From an uncultured Gammaproteobacteria bacterium (lineage in GTDB: Bacteria > Patescibacteriota > Microgenomatia > Daviesbacterales > UBA10151), in the NCBI GenBank assembly GCA_964459095.1, contig CAYWKL010000001.1:21253-85252 (forward strand): 64,000 bases of DNA. The letters run 5' to 3'. The position numbers were made by a program, and so were the translations under genes. Positions 25,808 to 63,567 of the stretch are shown piece after piece; the stretch's first letter is position 1; every line of letters starts with the position of its first letter. Under the pieces are notes generated by a model. It had not been told where the DNA came from. It searched no databases and saw nothing but the letters and a program-made list of their open reading frames with translations.

Positions 25808-27378
25808 ATTTTAGAGGCATTTACTTTGTATGCAGTTAATCTATCATAACCGGAAATATCCTTGACTTCAAATTCATATTTGAGATTATGAATCCTTGCC
25901 TGAATATCTGATATTGCTACATTATCCCCTACTAACATGATCTTGCTTTTGCAATCAGCAATTTTCCAGTCAATTGGCTTAAACTTGATATTATTGACGG
26001 TATATATTTCATATACTTTCACGTCTTTCGAATAGTAGGGACTCTCAAGTTGAGAACGAAGCTCTTTTTGTAAATTTTTAGGGTCAAAACTGGTTAAATA
26101 TGCTAATCTTAATCCTGCACCAGGGTCTCGGGCTGAATCTATAATTATTTTGTAATCCTTGTATTTATTTAATTTTTGGAATAGGGAAAGGTAAACATTT
26201 CCATAATCTTTTGCCCGTTCATACTTAAATAAAATAAAATACGAGAAATAAAATGACACCAGGGATTGAATTACGATAAGGATTAATACCGCAAATCCTA
26301 TTTTGCCTGGAAAATATTTAATGATTTTAAAAAAACCTAAAGATATGATAAGTGCGAATATCCAAATAGATTCTAGAGCTCTGAGTGGATAATAACTGTC
26401 CCCAGTTAGCGCTGCAGAAACTGGAGTAATAATTATTAAGATTAAAACTAGCTTAAAAAATTTTTTGTTTAGTGACTCTCTTAAGCTTTTAATACCAAAA
26501 ATAAATGGAATAATAAATATCGTGTAAAAAACCCCAAGTGTTGGCGGCATTCTCCCGAGTGCTGATCCCAAGTCAAAGAACAAATTTCTAGGTGAAAAAT
26601 AGATTAAATATCTTTTTATAAATTCTCCCAAAAAAGAGTGTGTCGTTCCTAAATATCCGACCTCAACTAAACGCCTAGTTAAAGCTCCCGTTGTCAAAAG
26701 AAAAAGGTGCGGCATCATTAAAATGATAAACGCGAATAAACCTAAAATTAGTCCTTTTTTATGTTTAAGGAAATACTGTCTAAAAAGAAAAATGAAACTA
26801 GGTAGAAAGAGTAAGCTTATAATTCTCTCACTGTAGTAAGCATGAGTTGATAAAGCAAGAAGAGTTGTAGCAACCACAAAAAACCAAATTTTTCTTAAGG
26901 AAAGGGTAAAAAATAAAAGACTGCTAACAAAAAATAAAACTCCCAAATTCCCTTCAGCAACCAAACGGCTAAAATATATAGACCAGGGAGAAATCGCAAT
27001 AATAAGTGATGAGATAAGCGCTAGCTCTTGTCTTTTTTTAACGCTAAATAGCTCTAAGCTCAAAAAGTAAGTAATTAGAACCAACAACGTACCTGCTAGA
27101 GCAGAAACAGATCTTGCGGACTCTACTCTGTTTCCAAATATTGAAATTGGAATGGTTGCAAAATAAGTATATAACGGAGGCTGGTAGGACCCGAATGATC
27201 TAAAAAGTAAGGGGAAAGGTTGTCCATATCTATCTTTACCAGACTGCATTAGAGAAAACGCGTTATATCCATGTGACTCTTCATCCCTGTGGATTCCAGC
27301 AGGAATCTCTCCCAGCTTATAAAATCTCAGTGAAAAAGCAAGAATAAGTATAAACGACAAAAGGATTTTTGATTTCAT
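25789..27378 (-). CDS. GT-C glycosyltransferase, PMT/ArnT-like, paralog 4
   Basis: 'PAGIHRDEESHGYNAFSLMQSGKDRYGQPFP'. Confidence 0.7.
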   Translation of the reverse strand: MKSKILLSFILILAFSLRFYKLGEIPAGIHRDEESHGYNAFSLMQSGKDRYGQPFPLLFRSFGSYQPPLYTYFATIPISIFGNRVESARSVSALAGTLLVLITYFLSLELFSVKKRQELALISSLIIAISPWSIYFSRLVAEGNLGVLFFVSSLLFFTLSLRKIWFFVVATTLLALSTHAYYSERIISLLFLPSFIFLFRQYFLKHKKGLILGLFAFIILMMPHLFLLTTGALTRRLVEVGYLGTTHSFLGEFIKRYLIYFSPRNLFFDLGSALGRMPPTLGVFYTIFIIPFIFGIKSLRESLNKKFFKLVLILIIITPVSAALTGDSYYPLRALESIWIFALIISLGFFKIIKYFPGKIGFAVLILIVIQSLVSFYFSYFILFKYERAKDYGNVYLSLFQKLNKYKDYKIIIDSARDPGAGLRLAYLTSFDPKNLQKELRSQLESPYYSKDVKVYEIYTVNNIKFKPIDWKIADCKSKIMLVGDNVAISDIQARIHNLKYEFEVKDISGYDRLTAYKVNASKICNEPK

Positions 27379-35772: not shown

Positions 35773-36893
35773 TAGTTTTTTATTAGATTTTTTATTTTCT
35801 TTTCAAAATGTTCTTCAGAAAATATTAAAGCCTTTTGTTTAGCATTTTTTCTCAATTTTCTAATTTTTTCCTCACTACCTTTTATTATGTTTAATGTATA
35901 CTCCTTTAACTTCGAGAGGTCATTCCATAAAAAACCATTAATACCCTGATCAATTATTTCAGGTTGACCCCCTAAGTTTATAACAACAGGAATGCATTCA
36001 GCAGACATAGCCTCCACAGTTGAAATTCCAAAATGTTCAAACTTTTTAGGATTATTTTCACCAAATCCTGTTGCGTGCCAATAAATTGAGGATTTGCCAT
36101 ATAGCTTTACCAGATCCCCAAAACTTATATTTTCAAAAAACTCAACAGGGTAATTTTTTGCAAGGTTTTTAAGGTATTCAAAGTATTTTTCATTCCCTGA
36201 ACTTAAACCTCCAGCTAAACAAAGCCTCCAATCTTTTAAGCCTTTGTCAACCATTTCTTTAAAAACTTTTATCAGGACATCATGCTTTTTTGGTTTAGAA
36301 AGTGAAAAAAAACCTACAGATAGTATTTGTTTTTCTTTTTTCAAAGGGGCAAGTTTATCTACTTCAACAGGAGGATAGATTACTTCACCCGCTAGATTTA
36401 GGTATTTTTCAATATTCTCTTTTGTAAATTGGGAATTATAAATTGCTTTTGTCCAAGATTTAAGCTTTATCTTTCCAAAAAGGCCACTAGTTTTAACTAC
36501 ATCAAGTGGTGACTGAAAATGTATGAAACTTTTTTTTGCTCCTGATAAAAAAATACTCCCATCAGATAGATAGAAGAAAACATCATATTTAGTTAAAAAT
36601 AAATACCTACTTAGAGCGTTTGAACCAATTCCAAAAGGACCTTTTTTAAAATTAACTTTAGAAAGATTTAAGTCATGAAAGAGGTGTATTTTCTTTTTTA
36701 TTAGATAAATTCCAAGAGAAAATAAATGTGCATCAAGAAGCACGTCTACACTATGCTCTTTAGATAAAACTTCTGCAATTGTTAAAACGTACCTTTCACC
36801 ACCACCTGATGTATCCAAATAGGGTGTATAGATTGCAATTCTCACTCTATTAAGTATTATACTTAATTTAAAAATTACTCTACATATCCCCAA
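35772..36893 (-). CDS. GT4-family glycosyltransferase
   Basis: 'FGISTVEAMSAECIPVVINLGGQPEII'. Confidence 0.8.
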   Translation of the reverse strand: MGICRVIFKLSIILNRVRIAIYTPYLDTSGGGERYVLTIAEVLSKEHSVDVLLDAHLFSLGIYLIKKKIHLFHDLNLSKVNFKKGPFGIGSNALSRYLFLTKYDVFFYLSDGSIFLSGAKKSFIHFQSPLDVVKTSGLFGKIKLKSWTKAIYNSQFTKENIEKYLNLAGEVIYPPVEVDKLAPLKKEKQILSVGFFSLSKPKKHDVLIKVFKEMVDKGLKDWRLCLAGGLSSGNEKYFEYLKNLAKNYPVEFFENISFGDLVKLYGKSSIYWHATGFGENNPKKFEHFGISTVEAMSAECIPVVINLGGQPEIIDQGINGFLWNDLSKLKEYTLNIIKGSEEKIRKLRKNAKQKALIFSEEHFEKKIKNLIKN

Positions 36894-38362
36894 AGAGATT
36901 CAGTAAGATTTAAATCCTCAGCAGAGCAAAGCTCCTTAAGGTTTTGAAAATCCTTTTCTCTAGGCTTAACTACTCCAATTATTCCTGAACGGAAATCTAT
37001 TTTCTCATCAGATAAATAAAAAGGTAAAGATATATTATAGACTGGTACATCAAGGGATGGCTTTGTTAGTTTAAGACCATTCAGATAAAAAATATACCTG
37101 AAGCCAAATTGGTTCCCAATTGATGTTATATATGAAATTCCAACACAAGGAAAATTTCTTTTTTTACTATCCTTAAGAATATATGAAGTAATTTCTTGTC
37201 TTTCCTTATATCCAAAATTTGCACTGTCTTTTATATTTACTAACAGATTTAAATTATTTACAAGTATTGCAAAAAACAATATAAGAATTATACGTATTCC
37301 AATTTTTTTGAATTTAACAATATATGCTAGCGCAAATACTATTATTATAAGAAATAAAGTGTCAATATTTGTAAAATAATATTCAGAAATCCCTTTACTT
37401 GAAAAACTAAAAAATAAAACCATTGATGCAAACCATGTAAAAATGATCAGAAAAATTCTTTTGCTTATAAATGCTTTGTAAGAAAGAAAGAATAAAATTA
37501 ACAGGAGTGCTGTCGCAACTATTAAATTTGTTGGAAAGCTGCCTCGCTCTGGAAAAAATAATAAGCCATACGAGTTTGAACTTACGTGAGATAAAACTTT
37601 AATAAATTTTTCGGTGAAGTTGGAGCTTTCCTGACTAAGAATAAAAGAATTAAAAATCGCTTTTAACTGAATAAAACCGTGCCTTGTTTCAAACAGTATT
37701 AATGGTACTACAGGAACTAAAAAAGCTATAAAAGTTTTAATTAGATCTTTTTTAGAAGGTAGCTTTCTGGCCAAAAATAAAGCAACAATAGCAGAGAGTA
37801 GAAGTGGTGCTTCAGCTAAACTGATATGCCAAATAAGTCCAGATAAAAACCCCAAAAGAGGTAAGAAATTTAAATTACCTTTGGCTATATTTACAACTGT
37901 ATAAAAAAACCAGATCTCCCAGATAAACATAGTATTTGTTGGAACTACCCAGCGATCATGCAAAACTCGAGTAAGTAAAACTGATTGCAAAAAAGCCGCC
38001 ATTAAACCTACCCAAACATTAACAAGCTTCTTAAAGATATAAAAATAACTTAAGATTGTTAGAATAGAAAGAACCAACCCAAATAATATTGCACCTGTTG
38101 GAAGCATATTAGTTATCAAAAAAAATGGAACAAGTGAATAATAAAATAACGGGCCAATGAAGATACCTGTTTGGCTTGTTTCTTGCCCTATCAACCTTAA
38201 GTGTTTGTTTACTACAATGTCCTTTACTATCCAGGAATAGATATCCCCATCATGTGCATATTCAAATCTTTCGTATGCTTTGTAAGCTCTAAAAAAAACT
38301 GAAATACAGATTATTATCAATAAAAGAAGCAAAATCTTTTTCCTGAAAAAAAACTTTTTCAT
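36875..38362 (-). CDS. Polytopic membrane protein, PMT_2-like GT-C candidate (paralog of 58007..59503)
   Basis: '…FEYAHDGDIYSW…LIGQETSQTGIFIGPLFYY' parallels 'FLGDEGRDALVVKK…LGPPTSVGNMYLGPLYYY' in 58007..59503. Confidence 0.5.
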   Translation of the reverse strand: MKKFFFRKKILLLLLIIICISVFFRAYKAYERFEYAHDGDIYSWIVKDIVVNKHLRLIGQETSQTGIFIGPLFYYSLVPFFLITNMLPTGAILFGLVLSILTILSYFYIFKKLVNVWVGLMAAFLQSVLLTRVLHDRWVVPTNTMFIWEIWFFYTVVNIAKGNLNFLPLLGFLSGLIWHISLAEAPLLLSAIVALFLARKLPSKKDLIKTFIAFLVPVVPLILFETRHGFIQLKAIFNSFILSQESSNFTEKFIKVLSHVSSNSYGLLFFPERGSFPTNLIVATALLLILFFLSYKAFISKRIFLIIFTWFASMVLFFSFSSKGISEYYFTNIDTLFLIIIVFALAYIVKFKKIGIRIILILFFAILVNNLNLLVNIKDSANFGYKERQEITSYILKDSKKRNFPCVGISYITSIGNQFGFRYIFYLNGLKLTKPSLDVPVYNISLPFYLSDEKIDFRSGIIGVVKPREKDFQNLKELCSAEDLNLTESLWGYVE

Positions 38363-42582: not shown

Positions 42583-44567
42583 ATTTTATAAATTCTTATT
42601 CCTCCTTCATCATAAATCAGCTCAAAACTTTTTGGTACGTTTAAAAGTTCTTGATCGGGTTCTAAATATAAATATCTAGCAGAATATTTCTCGGCAAAGT
42701 TTTCTAGCTTTTTTCCGGTATCATCCTTAAAGGCCTCTTCTCTAATTCTTAATAAGTCATCTATTCTGTACCCCATTATTTTGACCTGTTCCTCATCCGA
42801 TAAAAGTGTCTTTCTTCCTGAAAATGCAGAAACATAACCGGTGTCGTACCAATTGTATATTGGTTTCGGGGGATAAGTTTTAGATCCTTTATATTTATCA
42901 AAAGGAACTGTAAGAATAATATCAGAAGGATTAGAAACCTTATTCAAAAAGGTAAGAGCATCTAAAGATTCATAGGTTATTTTTGAAAGAGGTTGATTTG
43001 TATAAAATTGCAATAATAATCCAACTTGCGTAGGAATAGAAAGTATTATTATAAAAAATGAAATGACTATTTTTAATAATTTGTGCCTTAGGGCTTTTAT
43101 GAGATCTGCTACTGTAATCGCTGCAAGAAAACCGAAAAGCAAAAGAAAGTACTGGTTAAATTGAATTGTATTCCAGGCAACTCCCTTTTGTAGAAAAAAC
43201 ACAGGAATAAAGAAAGAGAGCGTTGTTATAATAATAAAAAATAAATTAAAAAAATCTTTATATATTTTTTTGGAGGTAAGTTTAAAGTAGGTAAAAAATC
43301 CTATAAACCTCATGCCTAAATTGCCAAAAAGGAAAATCAAAAATGCAGTTGCTTCAACTTGAATAACTCTTTTCCAGTTATTTTCTGCTATGTATGTTTG
43401 TCTTCTAAGTTCAAGATCTAACCAATTTAACCGGTCAGGAGCAACCACCATTGTTCTTATAAACCACCATGGCTCATACACTAAAAATTCCTTAGAATTT
43501 TTGCTATTTGGCAAATAAATAAGCATTGAAAAAATCAACGTATACAAAAAAATAATTGAAATCTGGAGCTTTCTTTTTATGATCAATTCAAATAGTCCTG
43601 TTGCTAAAAGCCCCCCTAAAATTAAAAGACCAGCATAAATTTTAAATTCAATTATTATTGCACCAAAAAAAATGCTAAGCCAAAAATATGTTTTGTTTCT
43701 TTCTTTAATAAAATTAAAAAAGGAGATTAAAAAGGCAATTAGAATAATAAATGCTGACGCGTGAGGAGGATTTCCTAACACAGAATGAGTTTGGGAAACC
43801 CAAAAAATAGTTTCACCTGAAAGGTTATGATTTTGTGGGATTGTAAGTAAGTAACCAAAACTTCCTACAAAAAATACAAAAAACATCGACCAAAGGCCAG
43901 CAATTTTACTTCCAGACCACTTTCTAACAAGTAAATAGCTTGAAAGACCAAGAAGAAGAGAAAAAACAACAGGCATTAATCTAAAATAGATATCTAAATT
44001 AGAAAATTTATAAAGTCTGCTCATCTCTGACATTAATAAATCTGAAAAAAAATGATAATTTTGTAGAGGCTTTCCTAAATATTCAGGATTTTTAAAAGGG
44101 AAGTCTCCCCTTTTTAATTCTTCCATTAAACTTAAATGCCAAACACCATCATGGCCGTGTGAGCTGTAAAAATAAATCCCATCTTCATATTTCATACCTG
44201 AAGGAGCATTAACAGCAACCTGAAAAATTATTCCTAGGATCAGTAGAGTAAAGAAAAATTTATTATTCTTTATCCATCCTCTCAGCAATTCAAAATCAAG
44301 CTTATTTAAGGATTTAATCAAAACTAGCAAACCTAAGACCGGAATCAGCCAAATAAGAAATTTTAAATAAAGAAATGTTAAAACGTATGCACTGATTGTA
44401 AAAAAAGCAATTCCAAAAATGCTCGCTATAGTAAAGTCCTCCAAAAATCCTCTTGAGCGATAATTAATTAATCTAAGAATCACATAAGATGGAAGGGTAA
44501 AAGAGATAAGTGAAACAGTTAGAAATAAAAATAGAAGTAAAAACTGAATCAAAATATTTTCAATCAT
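42579..44567 (-). CDS. Polytopic membrane protein of an unclassified family with a 'GHDGVWH' motif (paralog of the C-terminal half of 44560..47982)
   Basis: 'FYSSHGHDGVWHLSL…NYHFFSDLL…FIGNLGMRF' versus 'GPNGHDGVWHVAL…NYHYLYDLL…FIGNLGVRF'. Both C-terminal soluble tails are alike. Confidence 0.5.
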   Translation of the reverse strand: MIENILIQFLLLFLFLTVSLISFTLPSYVILRLINYRSRGFLEDFTIASIFGIAFFTISAYVLTFLYLKFLIWLIPVLGLLVLIKSLNKLDFELLRGWIKNNKFFFTLLILGIIFQVAVNAPSGMKYEDGIYFYSSHGHDGVWHLSLMEELKRGDFPFKNPEYLGKPLQNYHFFSDLLMSEMSRLYKFSNLDIYFRLMPVVFSLLLGLSSYLLVRKWSGSKIAGLWSMFFVFFVGSFGYLLTIPQNHNLSGETIFWVSQTHSVLGNPPHASAFIILIAFLISFFNFIKERNKTYFWLSIFFGAIIIEFKIYAGLLILGGLLATGLFELIIKRKLQISIIFLYTLIFSMLIYLPNSKNSKEFLVYEPWWFIRTMVVAPDRLNWLDLELRRQTYIAENNWKRVIQVEATAFLIFLFGNLGMRFIGFFTYFKLTSKKIYKDFFNLFFIIITTLSFFIPVFFLQKGVAWNTIQFNQYFLLLFGFLAAITVADLIKALRHKLLKIVISFFIIILSIPTQVGLLLQFYTNQPLSKITYESLDALTFLNKVSNPSDIILTVPFDKYKGSKTYPPKPIYNWYDTGYVSAFSGRKTLLSDEEQVKIMGYRIDDLLRIREEAFKDDTGKKLENFAEKYSARYLYLEPDQELLNVPKSFELIYDEGGIRIYKI

Positions 44568-47500
44568 TTCTTTTCGAATAAATAATTACATCTTCGTTTT
44601 CAAAAAGAACTTTGTAATTTTCTCCATCTAGAAAACTGTTGTAAAACTTAGGGATATAAATATACTCAATTCCATTGTCAGTAAGAAACGATTTTGCTTC
44701 TCCTTTTGATGCAAAAAATTCTTTTGACTGAATTCTTCTTTTTTTATAATCAATTCCTAAAATCTCATTTTGAACTTCATCTTCCAAAAAAACTGGTTTT
44801 TCAGAAAAAGCTGAAACATATGAAGAGGTATCATATGCGAAAAGGGGCAGCGGGTCAGACAATTTTATTTTCGTAGAAGATTCATAAGGATATGTTAAGA
44901 CAATTCCTTTTTCTTGTTCCTGTAAAAAATCTAACCCTTTAAGTTCACCACTGCTAATATAGGTATGCGGCAGAGGATATAAATAACCTTTTGCAACAGC
45001 TACAGAATTTATTGGTGCTAATATTAGTATGAATCCTAAAAGTAATATATTTAATATTGAAGGTAATTTTAGATAAATAAATGCAACAAAAATCCCTGCA
45101 TAAATGGCAGAGAAATAAAGAAAATAATAAAAAAATTGAATTGTATTCCAAGGAGTTCCTATTTGTATAAAAAGAAGAGGTAAAATAAAAGAAAAAATTA
45201 AAATACAGAAAGTTAAAAATACCAAACTATTTTTTAAATACTTAAGATAAAGTAAACCTATCAAAACAAAAAATCTTACCCCTAGGTTTCCTATAAAAAA
45301 TAAAAATACACCTAAGGATTCAACTAAAAAAAACTTAAACATCTCTCCTCTTTGCAGATACGCAGATCTTGCTCCAGACAATCTTATCCAACCAATTCTG
45401 TCAGGGGTATCAATCATTGTATGAACAAGCCATAAAGGAGCAAATAAAAAGTTTTGAGAAATTTTAAAATTAGGAATAAAAATTCCAAGTGACAAAATCG
45501 AACCCAAAAGTAAAACAAATATCAAATATATTTTTTTTCTAAAGAATTGAAAAATCATTAAAATAAAAACGGATATAAAAATGAGAATCGATGAATAAGC
45601 TTTAAAACCAATTAGCCCCCCCAAAAGCATTCCGCTAACAGCTATCATCCCCCACTGTCTAGTATTTAACTTGCTTATTAGGAGCAAACTGGCAATAACT
45701 AAAATGAATGAGATCGCAAAAGGCGGATTTAAATTAAAAGATATCGATTGATTTGCCCAAAAAGAAGATTCTCCAGATAAAACTCTTTCTTTTATCCAAG
45801 TTACAACCCACCCAAAACTACCTGCAAAATATACAAAGTAAAGTGGAATTAAATATAAGGAAATGGTGTTTTTAATTTTCTCAAATTTTAGGGGTAAATT
45901 ACTTATAAAACTTACTACACCTAATCCCAAAAGAATTGAGAATAAAATAGGAAAGAATCTAAAAACTAAATCCTCTGTTGAAATGAAACTCAAACTGGAC
46001 GTAGTTGCTATTAAAAGATCATATAAATAATGATAGTTTTTTAGAACTTCACCAGAAAAAACGGGATTTTCTGGGGGTAGGCCATTTTTTATTTGATTTG
46101 CTAGTGCAACATGCCATACTCCATCATGACCATTAGGTCCCCAAAAACCCATTCCATAAATAAATGAAAGACCACTTTTAAAGGTGGGCATCACTTGGAA
46201 TATTGTTCCTAAAATTATTAAACCTAATATATATAAATTAGGCATTTTTAGGTTAAATTTATACTTTCCCTTATAAATAATACTTAAAATTAAAAACACC
46301 AAAATATAAAAAAAGAGGAGAAGGTTAAGTTTAAAAAAGCCAGCTATATAAGAGACTAATGTTAAACTCGTTAGTCCAATTACAGTTGATAAGAATACTT
46401 CTTCAACTAAAGTATTGTAGATTTTTGAAATGAACTTTCTAACTATGAAAAGTCCTGGAATAAAAATCCCAATAATAAAAAAGATTGTGAATTTAAGTGA
46501 GTTTAAAATTGCTTGAAGTGGTTTCCAAAGTAATTGCGTATCTAAAACATTTGAATTTTGTTTAGGCTCCAGAGTATTTTTTAAGGCATTTAAAATGACT
46601 CCATCAATTGAAGAAATTTGTTTATCAATGGAAATATCACGAGTCATAAAAGCAATCTCTCTATTATTCCCTGCCTGATTTTTATACGATATTAAAAAGT
46701 CACTGTTAATCCTTTTGTAATTTAAATCACTTATCTTACCTTCATCTATAACTAATTTTTGCCCAAAACTTACTTCATCTAAAACTCTTGTTGCAGATGT
46801 TGCAAAATTTAGTGTCTCACAACTGTGTTTAAAACAAAGTTCTTCTTGATTGTCCAAATATTGTCTAACATCTCTCAAAATTGAACCATCTCTTCCATAA
46901 AACCAGGCAGCTCTATAAAAAACATCCATAAACCAGACAGATTTATTTTCAGTTCCTAGTGGATCATTTGAAACAATTATTTGTTCAGGGGATAGATTTG
47001 GAAAAGTTTTTTTGTAAATTTCAGAGAATTCGCTCATGGTAAGAAAGGTTAGCTTTCTTTTTTTTCGATCTTGATCCAAAACGTCCATTTGCTTCGTATA
47101 CTCCCCTTTATACTTATTCCATGAATATGAATTCTCAAGCCCTACAACTATTTGATTAACCTGATTATATTGTTGATCTAGATATAGACTTGTTATTTTT
47201 TTAAAATAATTAATATCTAAATCATGAAAATCTATATAATCATTTGGTTGAACGCTTAAAGTACTCTCTTCAACTGCTTTTCCATAACCATTCACTGGAT
47301 CCCTTGGGGCCCATTGAGTTATTACAACTGGAATTTTATTTTCTAATGTTTGAGCCGGCAAAAGAGTATGAGTCTTTTGAGGGTAATAAGGATAACCAAA
47401 ATATTGGCCCCAAATTTGATAATTATCAGTTGAGTATTGATCTGAAACTATTAAGGCAGCGCTGATACCGTATTTTTCGTACATGTAATTCAAGGAAAAA

Positions 47501-47982
47501 CTGTCTATAAACCATGCCCCAACTGATTTCGGATAATCACCAAATGTATCTTTGAATTTACTAAAGGAGGCATCTATTAATTTAACTCTATCTTCCTTTG
47601 AATAACCTGTTAAAAATACACTTCCTGCCCAATGCCAATTCCCGGATTCGTTGTATTTGATATTAGCAAGACTAGCAAACTGTGGAGTTACTTCCAGAAA
47701 TACTCCCTTTTCATAACTCCTTTCGTTTTTTAGTAAATTTATTATTTTTGCATTTGTAAAAACATCAGGCCTTATCAAAAATGTTGCAGGAATATTTCTC
47801 TTTTTTAACTCATCAAGCTCTCCTTTAACTGCATCTTCGGGTTTTTGATCTTTAGGATCCCAAAAATCTGCTCCTCTTACGGGATTTACTACAGTAACAT
47901 AGGAGTTAGAAGCTGCAAGAATCTTATTGGGGTAAAGAAGAGTTACTACTAAAGTTAAAACAAATAAAGTTATTTTAAACAT
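44560..47982 (-). CDS. 1140-aa protein: signal peptide + conserved extracytoplasmic domain (shared with 13946..15967) + 'GHDGVWH'-family polytopic membrane domain + C-terminal soluble tail
   Basis: See the two paralogy observations above. N-terminal 'MFKITLFVLTLVVTLLYPNKILAASNS' signal peptide. Confidence 0.5.
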   Translation of the reverse strand: MFKITLFVLTLVVTLLYPNKILAASNSYVTVVNPVRGADFWDPKDQKPEDAVKGELDELKKRNIPATFLIRPDVFTNAKIINLLKNERSYEKGVFLEVTPQFASLANIKYNESGNWHWAGSVFLTGYSKEDRVKLIDASFSKFKDTFGDYPKSVGAWFIDSFSLNYMYEKYGISAALIVSDQYSTDNYQIWGQYFGYPYYPQKTHTLLPAQTLENKIPVVITQWAPRDPVNGYGKAVEESTLSVQPNDYIDFHDLDINYFKKITSLYLDQQYNQVNQIVVGLENSYSWNKYKGEYTKQMDVLDQDRKKRKLTFLTMSEFSEIYKKTFPNLSPEQIIVSNDPLGTENKSVWFMDVFYRAAWFYGRDGSILRDVRQYLDNQEELCFKHSCETLNFATSATRVLDEVSFGQKLVIDEGKISDLNYKRINSDFLISYKNQAGNNREIAFMTRDISIDKQISSIDGVILNALKNTLEPKQNSNVLDTQLLWKPLQAILNSLKFTIFFIIGIFIPGLFIVRKFISKIYNTLVEEVFLSTVIGLTSLTLVSYIAGFFKLNLLLFFYILVFLILSIIYKGKYKFNLKMPNLYILGLIILGTIFQVMPTFKSGLSFIYGMGFWGPNGHDGVWHVALANQIKNGLPPENPVFSGEVLKNYHYLYDLLIATTSSLSFISTEDLVFRFFPILFSILLGLGVVSFISNLPLKFEKIKNTISLYLIPLYFVYFAGSFGWVVTWIKERVLSGESSFWANQSISFNLNPPFAISFILVIASLLLISKLNTRQWGMIAVSGMLLGGLIGFKAYSSILIFISVFILMIFQFFRKKIYLIFVLLLGSILSLGIFIPNFKISQNFLFAPLWLVHTMIDTPDRIGWIRLSGARSAYLQRGEMFKFFLVESLGVFLFFIGNLGVRFFVLIGLLYLKYLKNSLVFLTFCILIFSFILPLLFIQIGTPWNTIQFFYYFLYFSAIYAGIFVAFIYLKLPSILNILLLGFILILAPINSVAVAKGYLYPLPHTYISSGELKGLDFLQEQEKGIVLTYPYESSTKIKLSDPLPLFAYDTSSYVSAFSEKPVFLEDEVQNEILGIDYKKRRIQSKEFFASKGEAKSFLTDNGIEYIYIPKFYNSFLDGENYKVLFENEDVIIYSKRND

Positions 47983-49480: not shown

Positions 49481-50752
49481 TCATACATTTCCCAAATTCT
49501 TTTTTGAAAAAAATGAGTAAAAATAATAAGTGCAGGCCCCAACAAAAATACTTTGGATAATACTTCTTGAGAAATTATAATCTAAGCTTATATTTAGAGA
49601 CTGCCAAATACTGACTGAATCATATAAATTAGGCGCAATAGGAGAGAAAAGTCCTATTGTTAGTCCGGGATCAAAAAAGAAAAGGGAAGCAAACCAACTA
49701 AAAAGAATTAAACTTAAAGGAATTAAACTCTCAAATCCTGAACGGATTAGGTGAATTGCCAAAAATGGTGTTACCCATAGTAACCATTGAGGATGAAAGT
49801 GAGTAAAAATAAAAAAAGACAAAAGTATAATTAAAAAAATATTCCATAAGTTTTTTCTCTCAATACCCTTTATAGAGATAAAGATATAAAGAAATATTAA
49901 AAGGGTAGGAAAAAGTAATATTGACTCGCCTCCTGAAATTGGAACTGCGGCGTAAAAACTTTTCAAAGTTTGATTTGCTACTAACGCTGAGTTCTTGAAA
50001 CCACTTGAGCTTAAAAAGGGGAGTATGAGTATTATATAGGGAATTAGCCCTAAGAAAAAAATTCCTGCTCTTTCAAAAAAACTCTTTTTTATTAAGGCTA
50101 AGGATACTAAAAGAAAAAGTGGGTAGATTTTAAAAGCTATACCTAACCCTAAACTTATTGAGGCAAAAGACGTAAATTTTGAATATTGAGAGCGTGCTAC
50201 AAAGTAAATTGCCAAAATTGAAAAAAAAGTAGGGATAATATCAAATTGTCCCATCATATAAGTTGCATAAATATCAATTGGATTAAACATCCAAAACATA
50301 AGTATTAAAAACTTATCCTTTTTTTCTGTAAATAATTTCATTAATAAAAAGGCTACACTTAAATCAAAAATCAAATAGGGTATTTTGAGTGTCAAAAGAT
50401 GCACGAGAAGGGAAGAGGACAAAAGAGTATCTTTAATGTTGATTAAAAAGTTAATTCTAAACTCCTCACCTACAACTAAAGCAAAAGGTGCTCCAAAACC
50501 TCCAAGGAAAAAATATACAGCAGGGGGATAGTTAAAATTAAACTGCCCAAAGGTTTTATTTATTGGATTCCCCTTTGATAAATTTGGAAGATAATCATAA
50601 AAATTTAAAGGATTAGTTTTTGATAAAACATATCCACCTAGATCAAAAATTTGAATATCAGAGTGATAAGTAAAAGGGGAAATAAGCAACCTTAAAAGTA
50701 TACCTACTATTAAAATGGCAGCGAATTTGTTCACTATTAAATCATATAACAA
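49481..50752 (-). CDS. Polytopic membrane protein, possible GT-C-type (DUF2029-like?)
   Basis: Hydrophobic throughout. 'FTYHSDIQIFDLGGY' early loop. I recognise no firm family motif. Confidence 0.4.
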   Translation of the reverse strand: MLYDLIVNKFAAILIVGILLRLLISPFTYHSDIQIFDLGGYVLSKTNPLNFYDYLPNLSKGNPINKTFGQFNFNYPPAVYFFLGGFGAPFALVVGEEFRINFLINIKDTLLSSSLLVHLLTLKIPYLIFDLSVAFLLMKLFTEKKDKFLILMFWMFNPIDIYATYMMGQFDIIPTFFSILAIYFVARSQYSKFTSFASISLGLGIAFKIYPLFLLVSLALIKKSFFERAGIFFLGLIPYIILILPFLSSSGFKNSALVANQTLKSFYAAVPISGGESILLFPTLLIFLYIFISIKGIERKNLWNIFLIILLSFFIFTHFHPQWLLWVTPFLAIHLIRSGFESLIPLSLILFSWFASLFFFDPGLTIGLFSPIAPNLYDSVSIWQSLNISLDYNFSRSIIQSIFVGACTYYFYSFFSKKNLGNV

Positions 50753-60227: not shown

Positions 60228-61373
60228 GTGTCCAAAACAATTAAAAATCTATTAATTTTGAGTCTAACAGCAATATTTCTAACTATACTTATTTGGCTTC
60301 CGTCAATTTTGGGGTTGAAGAATTTTTATTACATGGATTTTTCGCAAGGTTTCGCGAATATTTATAGAAATTATGATGGTCTTGAATATATAGTAATTGC
60401 AAAAACATTCTATAATCCAACATTAATAGCTAATCTTGGCCAGACTCTTCCTGCAAATTATTATGCTGCCCATTTCCCAGGATATTCATTTCTAATTTTG
60501 ATCTTTGCACCAGTTTTTGGAATGTTAAAGTCTATGCTTTTTGTTTCAAGTTTATTCACGATTCTTTCAGTGTGGGCTTTTTATTTTTTGGTTAAAGACT
60601 TTAAACTCTCGTCTAATCCGCTTTTGCTCTCCATAATTTTTCTTATTCTTCCTGCAAGGTGGCTTATTGTACACTCGATTGGCTCCTCAGAACCCATATT
60701 TATTTTCTTCATAATCTTAGCACTTTATTTTTTCATGAAATTTGAAGAGATTCCAAAACAAAAGTTTATCTGGGCTGCAGCATTTTTTGGTTTAGGAGCA
60801 CAGATAACAAGACCTCCTGGGATTTTACTTTTTGCCTGTCTAGGACTTTACTTAATATGGAAATATCGGGAAAAAATCCTTACTAAAATTTGGAAGTTTT
60901 ATCCCCTTTTACTTATTTCTTTAGGATTACTGGGCGTATTTTATTGGTATTTACTTTCTTATGGTGATTTTTGGGCATATTTTAAAAGTGGAGACAATAT
61001 TCATTTATTATTTCCCCCATTCCAGGTATTTAACTCAAACCAGTTTTGGGTTGGGCAGCATTGGTTGGAAGATATAATTTTAGTTTTTATTTTAGGACTA
61101 TATGGTGGAATTTTACTTATAAAACAAAAACTTCTGCCTTTAGGATTTTTTGTATTAATTTATATTACAGCGTCCTTTTTTGTAGCTCATAGAGATATAA
61201 GTAGATACACACTCCCAGTTTTTCCATTTGTTTTAATTGCATTTGAAAAAGTTTTAGTAAGCAGAGAGTTTAGATTAGTTTTGATAATTTTAGCGCTAGC
61301 TATTTACCTTTATGTCCAAAATTTTATATTAAATAATATTGCACCAATTCCTAATTTAAAGGTTTTTGATTAA
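60228..61373 (+). CDS. Polytopic membrane protein, PIG-V/DUF2029-like GT-C candidate (paralogous motif to 17991..19151)
   Basis: 'YDGLEYIVIAKTFY' parallels 'FDGEHFISIAVNGY'. GTG start at 60228, with an in-frame TAA 12 nt upstream. Confidence 0.45.
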   Translation: MSKTIKNLLILSLTAIFLTILIWLPSILGLKNFYYMDFSQGFANIYRNYDGLEYIVIAKTFYNPTLIANLGQTLPANYYAAHFPGYSFLILIFAPVFGMLKSMLFVSSLFTILSVWAFYFLVKDFKLSSNPLLLSIIFLILPARWLIVHSIGSSEPIFIFFIILALYFFMKFEEIPKQKFIWAAAFFGLGAQITRPPGILLFACLGLYLIWKYREKILTKIWKFYPLLLISLGLLGVFYWYLLSYGDFWAYFKSGDNIHLLFPPFQVFNSNQFWVGQHWLEDIILVFILGLYGGILLIKQKLLPLGFFVLIYITASFFVAHRDISRYTLPVFPFVLIAFEKVLVSREFRLVLIILALAIYLYVQNFILNNIAPIPNLKVFD

Positions 61374-61441
61374 GAATTAAACTAATTTCCTGATCTTCTG
61401 ATACACAAAACTGCTATAGCTTAGCGTTGTATCAGACTTAG

Positions 61442-61466
61442 ATATCACACCCCGGGGGTGTGATAT
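61442..61466. repeat. Perfect inverted repeat ATATCACACCCC-G-GGGGTGTGATAT (12-bp arms) in the only sizeable intergenic gap. Candidate operator or hairpin.
   Basis: Read directly: arm 61442-61453 is the exact reverse complement of 61455-61466. There is no downstream T-run, so it is not a canonical intrinsic terminator. Confidence 0.6.
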
Positions 61467-61500
61467 TAATTGCACGATGTCGCGCATATTGATTATAGTA

Positions 61501-61528
61501 TTGACAATTGGGGTTTTATATTTATAAT
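61501..61528 (+). promoter_or_regulatory. Consensus sigma70-type promoter: TTGACA (61501-61506), 16-nt spacer, TATAAT (61523-61528). It sits 7 nt upstream of the ATG at 61536.
   Basis: Both hexamers are perfect consensus with 16-nt spacing. It would produce a leaderless or near-leaderless mRNA for the 61536 ORF. Confidence 0.4.
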
Positions 61529-61535
61529 TCTGATT

Positions 61536-62375
61536 ATGTCTAGAGGAACCCCAGAGTTTACGCCTACAAGTCACATGACAATTAAAGCAGGAGTACCTTT
61601 TAGATTACCTAATATTTATGTTCAGAGTGACATACCAAGATATCCAAGTCATGTAGAAGAATTGTCAGAAGTTACCCTACAAATTCATACTGGAATTTGG
61701 AGAGTTCTGGAAGACCATTTTGTAGCAATTCAAGATCTTCAAGGGATATCAGTTGGTAGATTGCGAAGTTTAAGAAAAGTTAATTTTGAGGGTGCTGATT
61801 TAGACAGACTAAGTAGTGGCAGAAGCGACTCGGAGGCATATATAAACCCAGTTGGGCATTTTTTCCCAAAATTCGATGTAGGGGATGGTCGAGTTCAGGT
61901 TGAGGAAAGTACTTTACCCAGACAAGTAGAATTTGCTCTGTCAGTAGATGGGCCAATACGGTTTGATTCCTTGGGATTCATGATGATTTACCGCGGGGGT
62001 GAAAGAATTGGAGCTAGAGACAGAGACGAACCTAGTTTAGTAGTAGCTCGACCAGGACTTTATTTGGACCGGGTAGACGATCCAATTGATGGAATTATAC
62101 TCCACCCTTTCTGTGCATCTGTTTGCAACGATTATGCAAAAGTGCTATTCCCTCCTGCCAAAATGCATTCTAATCAAGATTTCTTAAGGTATCCATGGTG
62201 GGTTATTTACGATGGAGCCCGACCACCTCTCGAGAATCTCTACAGAATGATTGATGAAATTGACCATCAGCAAAGACAAGAAAATGCACAAAGAATTATG
62301 GCATCTATAGAGGCAGCTGCGAGTAGCGAAACAGACAACCGAGCTCCATCCGATCTTAGCGAAACACACGACTGA
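61536..62375 (+). CDS. Hypothetical soluble protein, compositional outlier (clearly higher G+C and R/D/G/P-rich). Alternative TTG start at 61470.
   Basis: An uninterrupted roughly 900-nt ORF. Local G+C is visibly about 45% against about 30% in the flanks. No TM segment and no recognisable motif. Confidence 0.45.
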   Translation: MSRGTPEFTPTSHMTIKAGVPFRLPNIYVQSDIPRYPSHVEELSEVTLQIHTGIWRVLEDHFVAIQDLQGISVGRLRSLRKVNFEGADLDRLSSGRSDSEAYINPVGHFFPKFDVGDGRVQVEESTLPRQVEFALSVDGPIRFDSLGFMMIYRGGERIGARDRDEPSLVVARPGLYLDRVDDPIDGIILHPFCASVCNDYAKVLFPPAKMHSNQDFLRYPWWVIYDGARPPLENLYRMIDEIDHQQRQENAQRIMASIEAAASSETDNRAPSDLSETHD

Positions 62376-62385
62376 AATCCTTAAA

Positions 62386-63567
62386 CTAATCTCCTTTGTT
62401 TCTCCATGTTATAAAGTGATTAATTGTAAAATTCCAAATCATAACAGGTGGGATTGTGGCAAAGAAATACAAATTATAGTAGGCAACATTAACTCCTAAA
62501 ATATTTACTGTTCCTTCCCCATAAATTAAATCCAAAAGTTTGACTATTAAAACTCCAATAAGTAATCCTCCCAAACTAATTAAATTGAATGTTGCAAACT
62601 TAGAATAAATTGGACTTGTATTTTTTCTGTGTCTAAAGGTCCAAACGTGATTGAGGATAAAGTTATTAACAATTGCTATTTCTGTAGAAAATGCTTTAGA
62701 AGTTGCAGGAGGTGTTCCCAAATAGACTATGAAAACATTATAAAAAATAAAGTCTACTGTTGTTCCTGTTACACCAACTAATCCAAATTTTATTAAAGTT
62801 TTTGCCCTTCTTGTTAAATAAAAGATAGGAATATGTATTCCCCAAGAATTCAGCCTAATATCAAGCGAATAAGTAATAACATCGTAAATATAATTTATAA
62901 CTTTATTTTTTGAATATCCTTCTGCTCTGTTTTTAAAAACAAGCGGGATTTCTTTATACTTCTTGGTATGTAGAGTCAGCTCATGAAGCATTGCAGGTTG
63001 AATAATAAAAGTTTTTTCTTTCCAAGGAAGTTTTTGAATATCTAGCTTGTTAAAAAGTTCTGGGATAAAAGCTCTTGTGGAATTAGTAAACTCATGAACC
63101 TTAAAAGGTCCCATCAGAATTCTACAAAAAAAAGATGCTCCTGAACTAAAAAATTTTCTAGAAGGGGCTAGTAAATTTTTTCCACCTAGAACAAATCTTG
63201 AGCCAATTGCCAGATCATTTCCTTCTTCTATGGTTTTAATTAAACGCACAATTATCTCAGGATCAACTTGCTCGTCAGCATCTATCTGAATCAAAATATC
63301 AGGGTTCAAGTGTTCTAGAGCATATTGATGACCTTTCATTATGGCAACCCCTAATCCTTTTTCCACACTTAAATAATGTACATTTGGGTATTTTTTTTCT
63401 AAGTCTTTTGCAATTCTTGCTGTACCATCTAAAGAGAGGCTATCTACTATTAATATTTCAAGTTTGTGTCCAGGCAGTTTCGTTCCTTGAGATAAAACAT
63501 CTTCTACCATGCTTTTTATGTTCCCCACCTCATTAAAAGTAGGAAGAAGTACTGAGACTGTTTTCAT
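62386..63567 (-). CDS. GT2 DPM1-like polyprenyl-phosphate sugar synthase fused to a C-terminal GtrA-like 4-TM domain
   Basis: 'VSVLLPTFNEVGNIKSMVEDV…ILIVDSLSLDGT…IDADEQV'. C-terminal 'VGVTGTTVDFIFYNVFIVYLG…IVNNFILNHVWTFR' (GtrA signature N-x3-N-x2-W-T-F). Confidence 0.75.
   Translation of the reverse strand: MKTVSVLLPTFNEVGNIKSMVEDVLSQGTKLPGHKLEILIVDSLSLDGTARIAKDLEKKYPNVHYLSVEKGLGVAIMKGHQYALEHLNPDILIQIDADEQVDPEIIVRLIKTIEEGNDLAIGSRFVLGGKNLLAPSRKFFSSGASFFCRILMGPFKVHEFTNSTRAFIPELFNKLDIQKLPWKEKTFIIQPAMLHELTLHTKKYKEIPLVFKNRAEGYSKNKVINYIYDVITYSLDIRLNSWGIHIPIFYLTRRAKTLIKFGLVGVTGTTVDFIFYNVFIVYLGTPPATSKAFSTEIAIVNNFILNHVWTFRHRKNTSPIYSKFATFNLISLGGLLIGVLIVKLLDLIYGEGTVNILGVNVAYYNLYFFATIPPVMIWNFTINHFITWRNKGD

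What the first reader, a model, noticed from the sequence alone, without database searches (positions are those of the whole stretch)
61470..62375. GC-rich, compositionally foreign ORF wedged between glycosyltransferase genes
The ~0.9 kb ORF has visibly higher G+C and a different amino-acid flavour (R/D/G/P-rich, no TM) from everything around it. It has its own consensus promoter. Its stop is only 10 nt from the convergent GT2-GtrA gene.

It is a candidate for horizontal acquisition. It has no motif I can recognise.
Basis: seen in the sequence. Interest (0 to 1): 0.55.

Follow-up and report, generated by a model that had tools for sequence, protein, structure and literature searches.

The report
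Orphan gene inserted in glycosylation cluster
A 1-kb single-gene insertion with its own strong promoter sits between two sugar-transferase genes of a Candidatus Daviesbacteria genome; its protein has no detectable relative in about 15 billion sequences, and its high G+C comes mostly from an arginine/aspartate-rich, lysine-poor protein, not from foreign codon usage.

Summary
The ORF (61470/61536..62375, 301/279 aa) is the G+C maximum of the whole 64-kb window: 0.418 against 0.312 +/- 0.021. A 12/12 sigma-70 consensus promoter sits upstream, and the stop lies 10 nt from the convergent GT2-GtrA gene.

It is a real coding frame. Its codon-frame score equals the mean of 49 host genes, and its 301 open codons exceed the maximum of 193 in 5000 shuffles.

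About 85% of the G+C excess is amino-acid composition (R/(R+K) 0.83, pI 5.1). Synonymous usage is at the edge of the host range, not outside it.

The gene is an insertion. About 17 related Daviesbacteria lineages keep the same gene order and lack it. The two closest lineages (neighbours 80-89% identical) have an empty junction of 0-9 nt. A 15-nt direct repeat of native host sequence flanks a 989-bp insert (P about 8e-5).

The insert holds two hairpins, the promoter, an AUG 7 nt after the -10 box (so probably leaderless) and the ORF. It has no terminator, terminal inverted repeats or recombinase.

The protein is a strict orphan: only itself is found in 1.84 billion representatives, Pfam, NCBIfam, PHROGs, PADLOC, PDB, phages, plasmids and IMG/VR. 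Its function is unknown. I read it as a moron-like accessory cassette in a variable slot of a surface-glycan locus. Interest is modest.

The parts
60228..61373 (+). Left flanking gene, a PMT_2 (GT-C type) membrane glycosyltransferase. Its stop TAA is at 61371-61373.
   Evidence: Pfam PMT_2, E 4.6e-09. Orthologues are 54-84% identical in all related loci.
61377..61391 (.). Left copy of the 15-nt direct repeat, TTAAACTAATTTCCT. It is a relic copy of the spacer, the stop and the last two codons of GT2-GtrA. One C>T change turns GAT (D) into AAT.
   Evidence: these are the only two copies in 64 kb. P(>=14/15 at the two junctions) is about 8e-5; the same sequence is present once at the empty site of L035.
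61392..62380 (+). The inserted segment proper, 989 bp. It is absent from every related locus.
   Evidence: empty junctions; no blastn or tblastn hit in 340 kb of relatives' loci.
61397..61436 (+). Hairpin 1 of the upstream non-coding leader.
   Evidence: MFE fold of 61374-61540 is -45.2 kcal/mol, z = -3.98, and 0 of 200 shuffles fold as well.
61441..61467 (+). Hairpin 2, built on a perfect 12+12 palindrome ATATCACACCCC-G-GGGGTGTGATAT (61442-61466). It is unique in the window.
   Evidence: (I4). No T-tract follows it, so it is not a canonical intrinsic terminator.
61501..61528 (+). Sigma-70-type consensus promoter, TTGACA-16 nt-TATAAT (12/12).
   Evidence: it is the only 12/12 match in the window, where 0.23 are expected per 64 kb on both strands.
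61536..62375 (+). Orphan ORF of 279 aa from ATG 61536. The ATG lies 7 nt after the -10 hexamer, which implies a leaderless mRNA. The TTG at 61470 would give 301 aa but would translate through the promoter. The predicted protein is soluble, acidic (pI 5.1) and lysine-poor.
   Evidence: frame score 0.18, equal to the host mean; the other five frames are negative; no homologue.
62324..62380 (+). Imperfect 33-nt tandem duplication at the 3' end of the ORF (62324-62347 and 62357-62380). CGA in copy 1 corresponds to the TGA stop in copy 2. Copy 2 ends at the last base of the insert.
   Evidence: D1, 24 nt, 79%.
62381..62395 (.). Right copy of the 15-nt direct repeat, TTAAACTAATCTCCT. This is the functional copy. 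It holds 5 nt of spacer, the GT2-GtrA stop (CTA = TAG) and the last two codons (G, D).
62386..63567 (-). Right flanking gene, GT2 + GtrA (dolichol-phosphate-mannose-synthase-like). It is convergent with the ORF and intact.
   Evidence: Pfam Glycos_transf_2 1.8e-22 and GtrA_DPMS_TM 2e-19. There are 607 homologues at E<=1e-100, the closest at 86% and 84% identity.

Best explanation
SHOWN
- The window comes from a Candidatus Daviesbacteria (CPR/Patescibacteria) genome.
- In the ancestor, the PMT_2 gene and the convergent GT2-GtrA gene abutted, stop to stop, about 8-9 nt apart.
- After the split from the closest sampled relatives, a 989-bp segment was inserted two codons before the GT2-GtrA stop.
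- Fifteen base pairs of host sequence were duplicated, so GT2-GtrA kept its C-terminus.
- The segment is a self-contained expression cassette: two hairpins, a perfect sigma-70-type promoter, and one real protein-coding ORF of 279 aa. It has no terminator.
- The high G+C is mainly a property of the protein (R, D, P and E high; K, N, F, L and I low). It is not a foreign mutational signature.

INFERRED
- The mRNA is leaderless, because the AUG lies 7 nt after the -10 hexamer.
- The relic repeat copy is still 14/15 identical, so the insertion is young relative to neutral decay. The AT-rich third positions (AGA-dominated Arg codons) were therefore probably already present on arrival. The donor was then another AT-rich genome or mobile element of the same milieu, not a G+C-rich organism.
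- The lysine avoidance is a selected feature of the protein.

FUNCTION (inference only)
- The product is a cytoplasmic soluble accessory protein, expressed constitutively and independently of its neighbours, like a phage 'moron'.
- My best guess (about 0.35) is a strain-specific accessory factor of the surface-glycan pathway. Where the same slot in relatives holds a gene with a Pfam match, it is a sugar-nucleotide-type enzyme (NUDIX, SDR epimerase/dehydratase).
- Next (about 0.3) is a conflict-related cargo gene (phage or host interaction) that merely landed there.
- The rest is an unclassifiable or decaying passenger.
- With no terminator, its transcription should also run antisense into GT2-GtrA.
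For: - Coding: the frame score is 0.18, equal to the mean of 49 host genes (0.180 +/- 0.028), and the other five frames score -0.27 to -0.58. The open run is 301 codons, against a maximum of 193 in 5000 shuffles.
- Composition.
- Promoter.
- Hairpins.
- Insertion: the gene order GMD / GT2-GtrA / PMT_2 / GT2 / PMT_2 / GT2 is conserved in relatives. The junction is 2-40 bp in 10 lineages. It is 0-9 nt in the two closest lineages, whose neighbours are 80-89% identical.
- Repeat: the 15-nt direct repeat sits exactly at both borders, with empirical P about 8e-5. The repeat is native sequence, present once at the L035 empty site.
- Not an assembly artefact: a Logan contig from SRR12113420 is an exact 1993-bp match spanning both junctions.
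- Orphan status: protein databases; family libraries; PDB; phages, plasmids; IMG/VR; no paralogue in the window.
- Variable slot in relatives: NUDIX (L015/L017), NAD-dependent epimerase/dehydratase (L006/L019), a 1152-aa membrane protein (L003).
Against: - There is no homologue, so selection (dN/dS) cannot be measured and no expression data exist. The gene could be a recently arrived, non-functional passenger.
- AlphaFold2 on the single sequence gives no confident fold: mean pLDDT 34, with only a C-terminal helix at about 232-263.
- There is no recombinase, no terminal inverted repeat and no second copy, so the insertion mechanism is unresolved. A target-site duplication from a staggered cut and an att core cannot be told apart.
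- Synonymous usage is not perfectly host-like: the z-score is -2.6 against its own null, GC3s is +1.7 sd, and CGA is 21% of Arg codons against 4%. A somewhat G+C-richer donor with partial amelioration therefore remains possible.
- The 'young insertion' argument rests on one 15-nt repeat with one mismatch, which gives a very wide confidence interval.
- The link to glycan function is guilt by association only. The filled slots in other lineages have no flanking repeats and are unrelated to this insert.
Confidence: 0.75

Rival explanations
1. The gene came from a clearly G+C-richer donor (about 45-60% G+C, as suggested by GC1 0.55, GC2 0.40 and R>>K). Its third codon positions have since ameliorated to the host's AT bias, so the event is old rather than young.
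For: The amino-acid profile has R/(R+K) 0.83, against 0.09-0.47 in 49 host genes. Residual excesses remain: GC3s is +1.7 sd, CGA/CGG Arg codons are 29% against 7%, and observed minus expected G+C is +0.016, or 1.7 sd. The insertion can only be dated as later than the split from relatives that are 84-86% identical in GtrA.
Against: Amelioration of GC3 from about 0.5 to 0.26 needs of the order of one substitution per neutral site. The non-functional left repeat copy still matches at 14 of 15 positions. Ala (6.1%) and Gly (6.5%) are not at high-G+C levels, and Ile is 6.8%. No G+C-rich homologue exists in any database searched.
Confidence: 0.15
2. The unit is an autonomous or non-autonomous mobile element. 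Either the ORF is a novel recombinase or transposase, or the cassette is mobilised in trans by an integrase that makes about 15-bp duplications at gene 3' ends.
For: There is an exact-border 15-nt duplication of host sequence at the 3' end of a gene. That is the length casposases produce (PMC5137440). It is also compatible with the att core of a tyrosine integrase.
Against: There are no terminal inverted repeats. The protein is acidic (pI 5.1) and has no DDE, HTH, Cas1 or integrase signal in Pfam, NCBIfam or PHROGs. It is single-copy in the window, and nothing like it appears anywhere in about 15 billion proteins. That is the opposite of what a proliferating element shows.
Confidence: 0.07
3. 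The ORF is an ancestral or housekeeping gene of unusual composition that the relatives lost.
For: The same junction holds other genes in six lineages, so gene content there does change.
Against: It is absent in all of about 17 lineages, including the two closest, where the stops abut. The flanking duplication of native sequence marks an insertion, not a deletion in the others. There is no homologue anywhere.
Confidence: 0.03
4. The feature is an artefact: a chimeric assembly or contaminant fragment, a chance ORF, or a G+C-rich structured RNA instead of a gene.
For: G+C-rich islands in AT-rich genomes are often RNA genes. The source is a metagenome-assembled genome. The upstream 167 nt fold unusually well.
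Against: An exact 1993-bp Logan contig spans both junctions. The codon-frame score is host-like in one frame only, and the ORF length exceeds all 5000 shuffles. Rfam gives no match at E<=1. The other five frames have no Pfam match.
Confidence: 0.03

Closest known systems
Phage 'morons': independent transcription units added between conserved genes
   Same: A single extra ORF lies between two genes that abut in relatives. Its G+C differs from its neighbours and it has its own promoter. This matches the definition in PMC3594210.
   Different: It is not in a prophage: the surroundings are a chromosomal glycosyltransferase array. It has no terminator of its own. It has no PHROGs, phage or IMG/VR match. 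Classical morons are not described with a 15-bp flanking duplication.
Variable accessory genes in surface-polysaccharide loci (O-antigen or capsule type loci with atypical-G+C genes). This comparison rests on my general knowledge, not on a test here.
   Same: It is a strain-specific gene inside a conserved glycan-synthesis cluster. The slot is recurrently variable, and in two lineages it holds sugar-nucleotide enzymes (NUDIX, SDR epimerase).
   Different: There is no glycan-related domain or any other domain. The gene is transcribed from its own promoter, convergent to one neighbour. A functional link is not shown.
Casposons and other elements that integrate by staggered nicks
   Same: There is a 15-bp duplication of the target at the 3' end of a gene. 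The A. boonei casposase makes 15-bp duplications next to the 3' end of tRNA-Pro (PMC5137440).
   Different: There are no terminal inverted repeats, no Cas1 and no PolB. The size is 1 kb instead of many kb. The organism is a bacterium of the CPR.
Integron gene cassettes
   Same: It is a unit of about 1 kb with a single ORF, very little non-coding DNA after the stop, and an imperfect or perfect palindrome in the non-coding part.
   Different: The palindrome lies upstream, not downstream, of the ORF. The repeat does not contain the GTTRRRY core (TTAAACTAATYTCCT; its reverse complement has GTTTAA). The cassette has its own promoter. No integron integrase was seen in the window's ORF translations. 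Only part of the window was scanned against Pfam.
ORFans / lineage-specific hypothetical proteins of CPR genomes
   Same: There is no detectable homologue and no domain. The protein is short and soluble.
   Different: Here the orphan's arrival can be reconstructed to the base pair from an empty site in a relative. Its composition (R/(R+K) 0.83, pI 5.1) is the extreme of its genome.

Membership tests
Horizontally or secondarily acquired genomic islet | Absent from the orthologous, syntenic position in close relatives | tested here: met
   The junction is 0-40 nt in 12 lineages, including the two closest (neighbours 80-89% identical). No tblastn or blastn hit in 340 kb of related loci.
Horizontally or secondarily acquired genomic islet | Flanking direct repeats that duplicate the target sequence | tested here: met
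   A 15-nt repeat, 14/15 identical, lies at both borders with P about 8e-5. The sequence occurs once at the empty site of L035.
Horizontally or secondarily acquired genomic islet | Atypical nucleotide signature (synonymous codon usage or GC3) relative to the host | tested here: inconclusive
   Total G+C is about 6 sd above the host genes, but 85% of the excess is explained by amino-acid content. GC3s is +1.7 sd, and the synonymous likelihood is second lowest of 50 genes.
Horizontally or secondarily acquired genomic islet | Associated mobility gene (integrase or transposase) or a tRNA target | tested here: not met
   The only ORF has no recombinase signal. The target is the 3' end of a protein-coding gene. 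The rest of the genome beyond the window could not be read.
Phage moron | Independent transcription unit with its own promoter | tested here: met
   A 12/12 consensus promoter at 61501-61528 lies inside the insert. This is a sequence prediction only, with no expression data.
Phage moron | Own terminator | tested here: not met
   No terminator-like site lies between the stop (62375) and the convergent gene, which is only 10 nt away.
Phage moron | Located within a phage or prophage genome | tested here: not met
   The neighbours are PMT_2 and GT2 glycosyltransferases that are conserved chromosomally in relatives. No PHROGs, phage or IMG/VR match.
Casposon or casposase-mobilised element | Target-site duplication of about 14-15 bp | tested here: met
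   A 15-nt duplication. The reference value is from PMC5137440.
Casposon or casposase-mobilised element | Terminal inverted repeats, with Cas1 and PolB genes | tested here: not met
   No inverted repeat joins the two ends of the insert. The single ORF has no Pfam hit.
Integron gene cassette | attC site 3' of the ORF with GTTRRRY core sites, and an integron integrase nearby | tested here: not met
   Only 5 nt lie between the stop and the repeat. The palindrome is 5' of the ORF. The repeat lacks GTTRRRY. IntI was not searched for specifically.
EF-hand / DxDxDG calcium-binding proteins (a lead from the weak PDB hit) | Canonical 12-residue loop with D at position 1 and E at position 12, at significant similarity | tested here: not met
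   The best PDB match is mnemiopsin at E 0.099, with per-domain i-E-values of 13 and 81. The aligned loops read ALSVDGPIRFDS and DDPIDGIILHPF. The first lacks D at position 1 and both lack the E at position 12.

The most novel reading that the evidence does not exclude
The 989-bp unit would be the first sighting of an undescribed class of recombinase-less, single-gene expression cassettes in CPR bacteria, made of hairpins, a consensus promoter and a leaderless ORF. An integrase acting in trans would insert such cassettes at the 3' ends of genes with a 15-bp duplication. This one would deliver a lysine-depleted, acidic protein of a new fold, selected for an interaction role. That role could be an effector or anti-defence protein that evades lysine-directed modification, or a new sugar-nucleotide or glycan-modifying activity.
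Probability: 0.08. Interest if true: 0.6.

Novelty: new member of a known kind. Interest (0 to 1): 0.3.

Why it matters
It is a clean, base-pair-resolved example of how an orphan gene enters a streamlined CPR genome. The empty site, the 15-bp duplication, the imported promoter and the intact host gene are all visible.

It also carries a methodological caution. A 10-point G+C jump in an AT-rich genome can be almost entirely an amino-acid-composition effect, and does not by itself indicate a G+C-rich donor.

If the protein is functional, it is a completely uncharacterised family in a surface-glycosylation locus, in a lineage thought to live attached to host cells. Its extreme lysine avoidance in a 31% G+C genome needs explaining. 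As it stands, it is one more hypothetical protein with no testable biochemical lead, so the practical importance is modest.

Tried and rejected
1. Homology:
- The word-indexed search of 5.8 billion clusters at E<=0.001 and again at E<=10 returned only the query itself.
- The exhaustive phmmer search of 1.84 billion representatives also returned only itself.
- Pfam, NCBIfam, PHROGs and PADLOC gave nothing.
- tblastn against phages and plasmids gave nothing.
- The IMG/VR scans with the protein and with the palindrome gave nothing.

2. PDB sequence search: a weak hit to ctenophore photoproteins (E 0.099). I rejected it because the per-domain E-values are 13-160 and both aligned EF-hand loops lack the E at position 12, the first also the D at position 1.

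3. AlphaFold2 without an alignment: mean pLDDT 34. I did not run a fold search, because matches to such a model would be meaningless.

4. Structured-RNA reading: Rfam gave no match at E<=1.

5. Hidden pseudogene in another frame: no Pfam match in the five other frames.

6. Shared origin with the inserts at the same junction in other lineages: no blastn or tblastx similarity and no flanking repeats there.

7. Terminal inverted repeats, other copies of the 15-mer or palindrome, and a paralogue in the window: none found.

8. Shine-Dalgarno as a way to choose the start codon: uninformative, because most genes of the window lack one.

9. Reading the rest of the 100,933-bp source contig through the exact-protein index: not on record. 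The search for SRR12113420 in papers found nothing.
Full report
OBSERVATION

The ORF exists as described. It runs 61470..62375 on the + strand and is 301 aa from TTG. An in-frame ATG at 61536 gives 279 aa.

The window as a whole is 31.3% G+C. Forty-nine other long ORFs range from 0.285 to 0.351 (mean 0.313, sd 0.017), whereas this ORF is 0.409-0.418. With an 840-nt sliding window, the G+C maximum of the entire 64 kb (0.418) falls exactly at 61536. The best value anywhere else is 0.369. The fine profile shows 0.41-0.44 from about 61700 to 62400.

The amino-acid flavour is also as described. R is 8.6% against 3.4%, D 8.6 against 3.8, P 7.2 against 4.0 and E 6.5 against 4.3, and K is only 1.8% against 8.0%. 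There is no transmembrane segment.

TTGACA-16-TATAAT at 61501-61528 is a 12/12 match. It is the only one in the window on either strand, where 0.23 are expected per 64 kb. The ORF stop (62373-62375) lies 10 nt from the stop of the convergent GT2+GtrA gene.

IS IT A GENE?

Yes. I trained a codon log-odds score on 49 host genes, comparing in-frame with out-of-frame codons. It gives 0.18 for the annotated frame, which equals the host mean (0.180 +/- 0.028). The other five frames score -0.27 to -0.58, and the result holds in each quarter of the ORF.

The 301-codon open run exceeds the longest run in 5000 shuffles of the same 1012 bp (maximum 193). Rfam finds no RNA family at E<=1. The other five frames have no Pfam match.

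A Logan contig from run SRR12113420 is an exact 1993-bp match to window 61039-63031 and spans both junctions. A chimeric MAG join is therefore unlikely.

WHAT THE COMPOSITION MEANS

The excess G+C is in codon positions 1 and 2 (GC1 0.546, GC2 0.397; both the highest of the 49 genes compared). GC3 is 0.285, within the host range.

If the host's own synonymous codon frequencies are applied to this amino-acid sequence, the expected G+C is 0.402 against 0.418 observed. About 85% of the excess is therefore protein composition.

The synonymous signal is marginal. GC3s is 0.257 against 0.211 +/- 0.027 (maximum 0.270). Observed minus expected G+C is +0.016 (1.7 sd). The synonymous likelihood is second lowest of 50 genes. 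Arg codons are 62% AGA against 65% in the host, with an excess of CGA (21% against 4%).

The protein itself is the true outlier. R/(R+K) is 0.83 against 0.09-0.47 in all 49 other genes. Its pI is 5.1, while most of the 49 compared proteins have a pI of 8.4-10.6 (two others are acidic or neutral, 5.2 and 6.8).

CONTEXT AND ORIGIN

The flanking genes identify the organism as Candidatus Daviesbacteria. The order GMD / GT2-GtrA / convergent PMT_2 / GT2 / PMT_2 / GT2 is conserved in 10 genome loci and about a dozen metagenome loci.

In 10 lineages the two convergent stops are 2-40 nt apart. In six lineages the junction is filled, each time with something different:
- 318 bp of non-coding DNA (L002);
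- a small membrane ORF (L005);
- a NUDIX gene (L015/L017);
- an NAD-dependent epimerase/dehydratase gene (L006/L019);
- a 1152-aa membrane protein (L003).

None of these resembles the window's insert, and none has flanking repeats.

A search with the GtrA protein then found much closer relatives: 86% identity in two Logan contigs and 84% in the NCBI MAG GCA_964546175.1. In these, all neighbours are 80-89% identical and in the same order. The junction is empty, at 0 nt and 9 nt.

THE INSERTION SCAR

A 15-nt direct repeat lies exactly at the two borders: TTAAACTAATTTCCT at 61377-61391 and TTAAACTAATCTCCT at 62381-62395. These are the only two copies in the window. The probability of a 14/15 match between two junction-sized segments drawn from this window is about 8e-5.

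The right copy contains the last two codons (G, D), the stop of GT2-GtrA and 5 nt of spacer. The left copy lies 3 nt after the PMT_2 stop.

Deleting 61377-62380 reconstructs TAA-GAATTAAA-CTA-ATC-TCC-TTT... The empty site of L035 reads TAA-CTCTTAAAA-TTA-ATC-TCC-CTT..., and both encode ...WRNKGD*.

The repeat is therefore host sequence duplicated on insertion, and the insert proper is 61392-62380 (989 bp). This could be a fill-in of a staggered cut (a target-site duplication) or the core of a site-specific recombination. The data do not distinguish the two. There are no terminal inverted repeats and no recombinase.

ANATOMY OF THE INSERT

- 61397-61436 and 61441-61467 are two adjacent hairpins. 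The second is a perfect 12+12 palindrome that is unique in the window. The region folds with z = -3.98.
- 61501-61528 is the consensus promoter.
- 61536 is the ATG, 7 nt after the -10 hexamer. By standard sigma-70 promoter geometry (established knowledge from E. coli, applied here by inference), transcription would start at or next to the A of the AUG, giving a leaderless mRNA.
- Most genes of the window lack a recognisable Shine-Dalgarno sequence, so its absence here is not unusual.
- The 22 extra residues of the 301-aa reading are simply the translated promoter.
- The ORF ends at 62375. Its last 57 nt contain an imperfect 33-nt tandem duplication in which CGA corresponds to the TGA stop.
- Five nucleotides later the right repeat begins. 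There is no terminator, so transcription should continue antisense into GT2-GtrA. This is an inference.

DONOR (INFERENCE)

The left repeat copy has no function and still matches at 14 of 15 positions. Little neutral change has therefore accumulated since insertion, although one 15-mer gives a wide interval.

If so, the AT-rich third positions and the AGA-dominated Arg codons were already present on arrival. That points to an AT-rich donor with similar codon habits, such as another CPR bacterium or one of their mobile elements, and not a G+C-rich organism.

The rival is an older acquisition from a G+C-richer donor with ameliorated third positions. It keeps about 0.15, because of the residual CGA/CGG and GC3s excess.

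THE PROTEIN

It is a strict singleton. Only itself was recovered from 5.8 billion clusters at E<=10 and from an exhaustive phmmer scan of 1.84 billion representatives of about 15 billion proteins. Nothing was found in Pfam, NCBIfam, PHROGs or PADLOC, in phages, plasmids or IMG/VR, or elsewhere in the window.

The best PDB match (ctenophore photoproteins, E 0.099) aligns two 'DG-x-I' segments to EF-hand loops, but both loops lack the E at position 12 and the first also lacks the D at position 1, so the match is not significant.

AlphaFold2 without an alignment gave mean pLDDT 34, with only a C-terminal helix (about 232-263) above 70. I did not run a fold search on such a model.

The sequence shows a soluble, acidic protein with no signal peptide, no transmembrane segment, two Cys residues (CxxxC at 194-198) and an acidic, probably disordered tail. 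The function cannot be assigned.

MOST LIKELY EXPLANATION

This is a moron-like, self-contained expression cassette captured into a recombination-prone, stop-to-stop junction of a surface-glycan locus. Morons are defined as extra genes with their own promoter and terminator and deviant G+C (PMC3594210). This unit meets the promoter and G+C criteria but has no terminator and is not in a prophage.

The 15-bp duplication equals the length made by the A. boonei casposase next to the 3' end of a tRNA gene (PMC5137440). The defining inverted repeats and Cas1 are absent, however.

For function I give about 0.35 to a strain-specific accessory role in the glycan pathway, because in two lineages the slot holds sugar-nucleotide enzymes. 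I give about 0.3 to a conflict-related cargo gene. The remainder goes to a functionless passenger.

VERDICT

The finding is real, and the acquisition hypothesis is well supported. The 'foreign composition' argument is largely an amino-acid effect. The object is an orphan gene insertion, a known kind of thing, documented here unusually cleanly, in a group of bacteria where hypothetical proteins are common. Interest is 0.3.

Noticed in passing
window 13946-63567: This stretch is an almost uninterrupted, mostly minus-strand array. It holds about 19 paralogous polytopic membrane proteins of 420-570 aa (Pfam PMT_2/PMT, GT-C-type glycosyltransferases) interleaved with GT2 genes. That is an unusually large tandem expansion for a small CPR genome.
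   Followed up: partly
L015 3746-4216, L017 5187-5657, L006 11157-11897, L003 11181-14639, L005 11180-11475, L002 7849-8166: The GT2-GtrA/PMT_2 junction is a recurrent variable slot across Daviesbacteria. It holds a NUDIX gene, an NAD-dependent epimerase/dehydratase gene that overlaps the GtrA 3' end by 26 nt, a 1152-aa membrane protein with no Pfam hit, a small membrane ORF, or 318 bp of 43% G+C non-coding DNA. None has flanking repeats.
   Followed up: partly
window 62324-62380: There is an imperfect 33-nt tandem duplication at the 3' end of the orphan ORF (SETDNRAP... / SETHD*). The stop codon TGA corresponds to CGA in the first copy, and the second copy ends on the last base of the insert.
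   Followed up: partly
window 61442-61466: A perfect 25-nt palindrome, ATATCACACCCCGGGGGTGTGATAT, is unique in the window and absent from IMG/VR. Its centre lies about 80 nt upstream of the predicted transcription start. It could be an operator, an insulating hairpin or a recombination structure.
   Followed up: partly
window, all gene starts: Most of the 49 long ORFs have no recognisable Shine-Dalgarno sequence within 25 nt of the start. Several have TATAAT-like hexamers 3-11 nt upstream of the ATG. This suggests that very short leaders or leaderless mRNAs may be common in this organism. The starts used are the longest-ORF starts, so this is tentative.
   Followed up: no
window 25789-27378 (-): This 529-aa membrane protein has the most deviant synonymous codon usage in the window (z -3.65, more extreme than the orphan ORF) and a high GC3 of 0.283.
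   Followed up: no
window 44560-47982 (-), 36875-38362 (-), 49481-50752 (-): Large ORFs inside the glycosyltransferase array (1140, 495 and 423 aa) have no Pfam match at E<=0.001. The member at 52390-54072 matches PTPS_related instead of PMT_2.
   Followed up: no
L008, L011, L033/L034 junctions: In several relatives the convergent PMT_2 and GT2-GtrA genes share or directly abut their stop codons (0-2 nt apart). The two genes therefore have no room for terminators between them.
   Followed up: no
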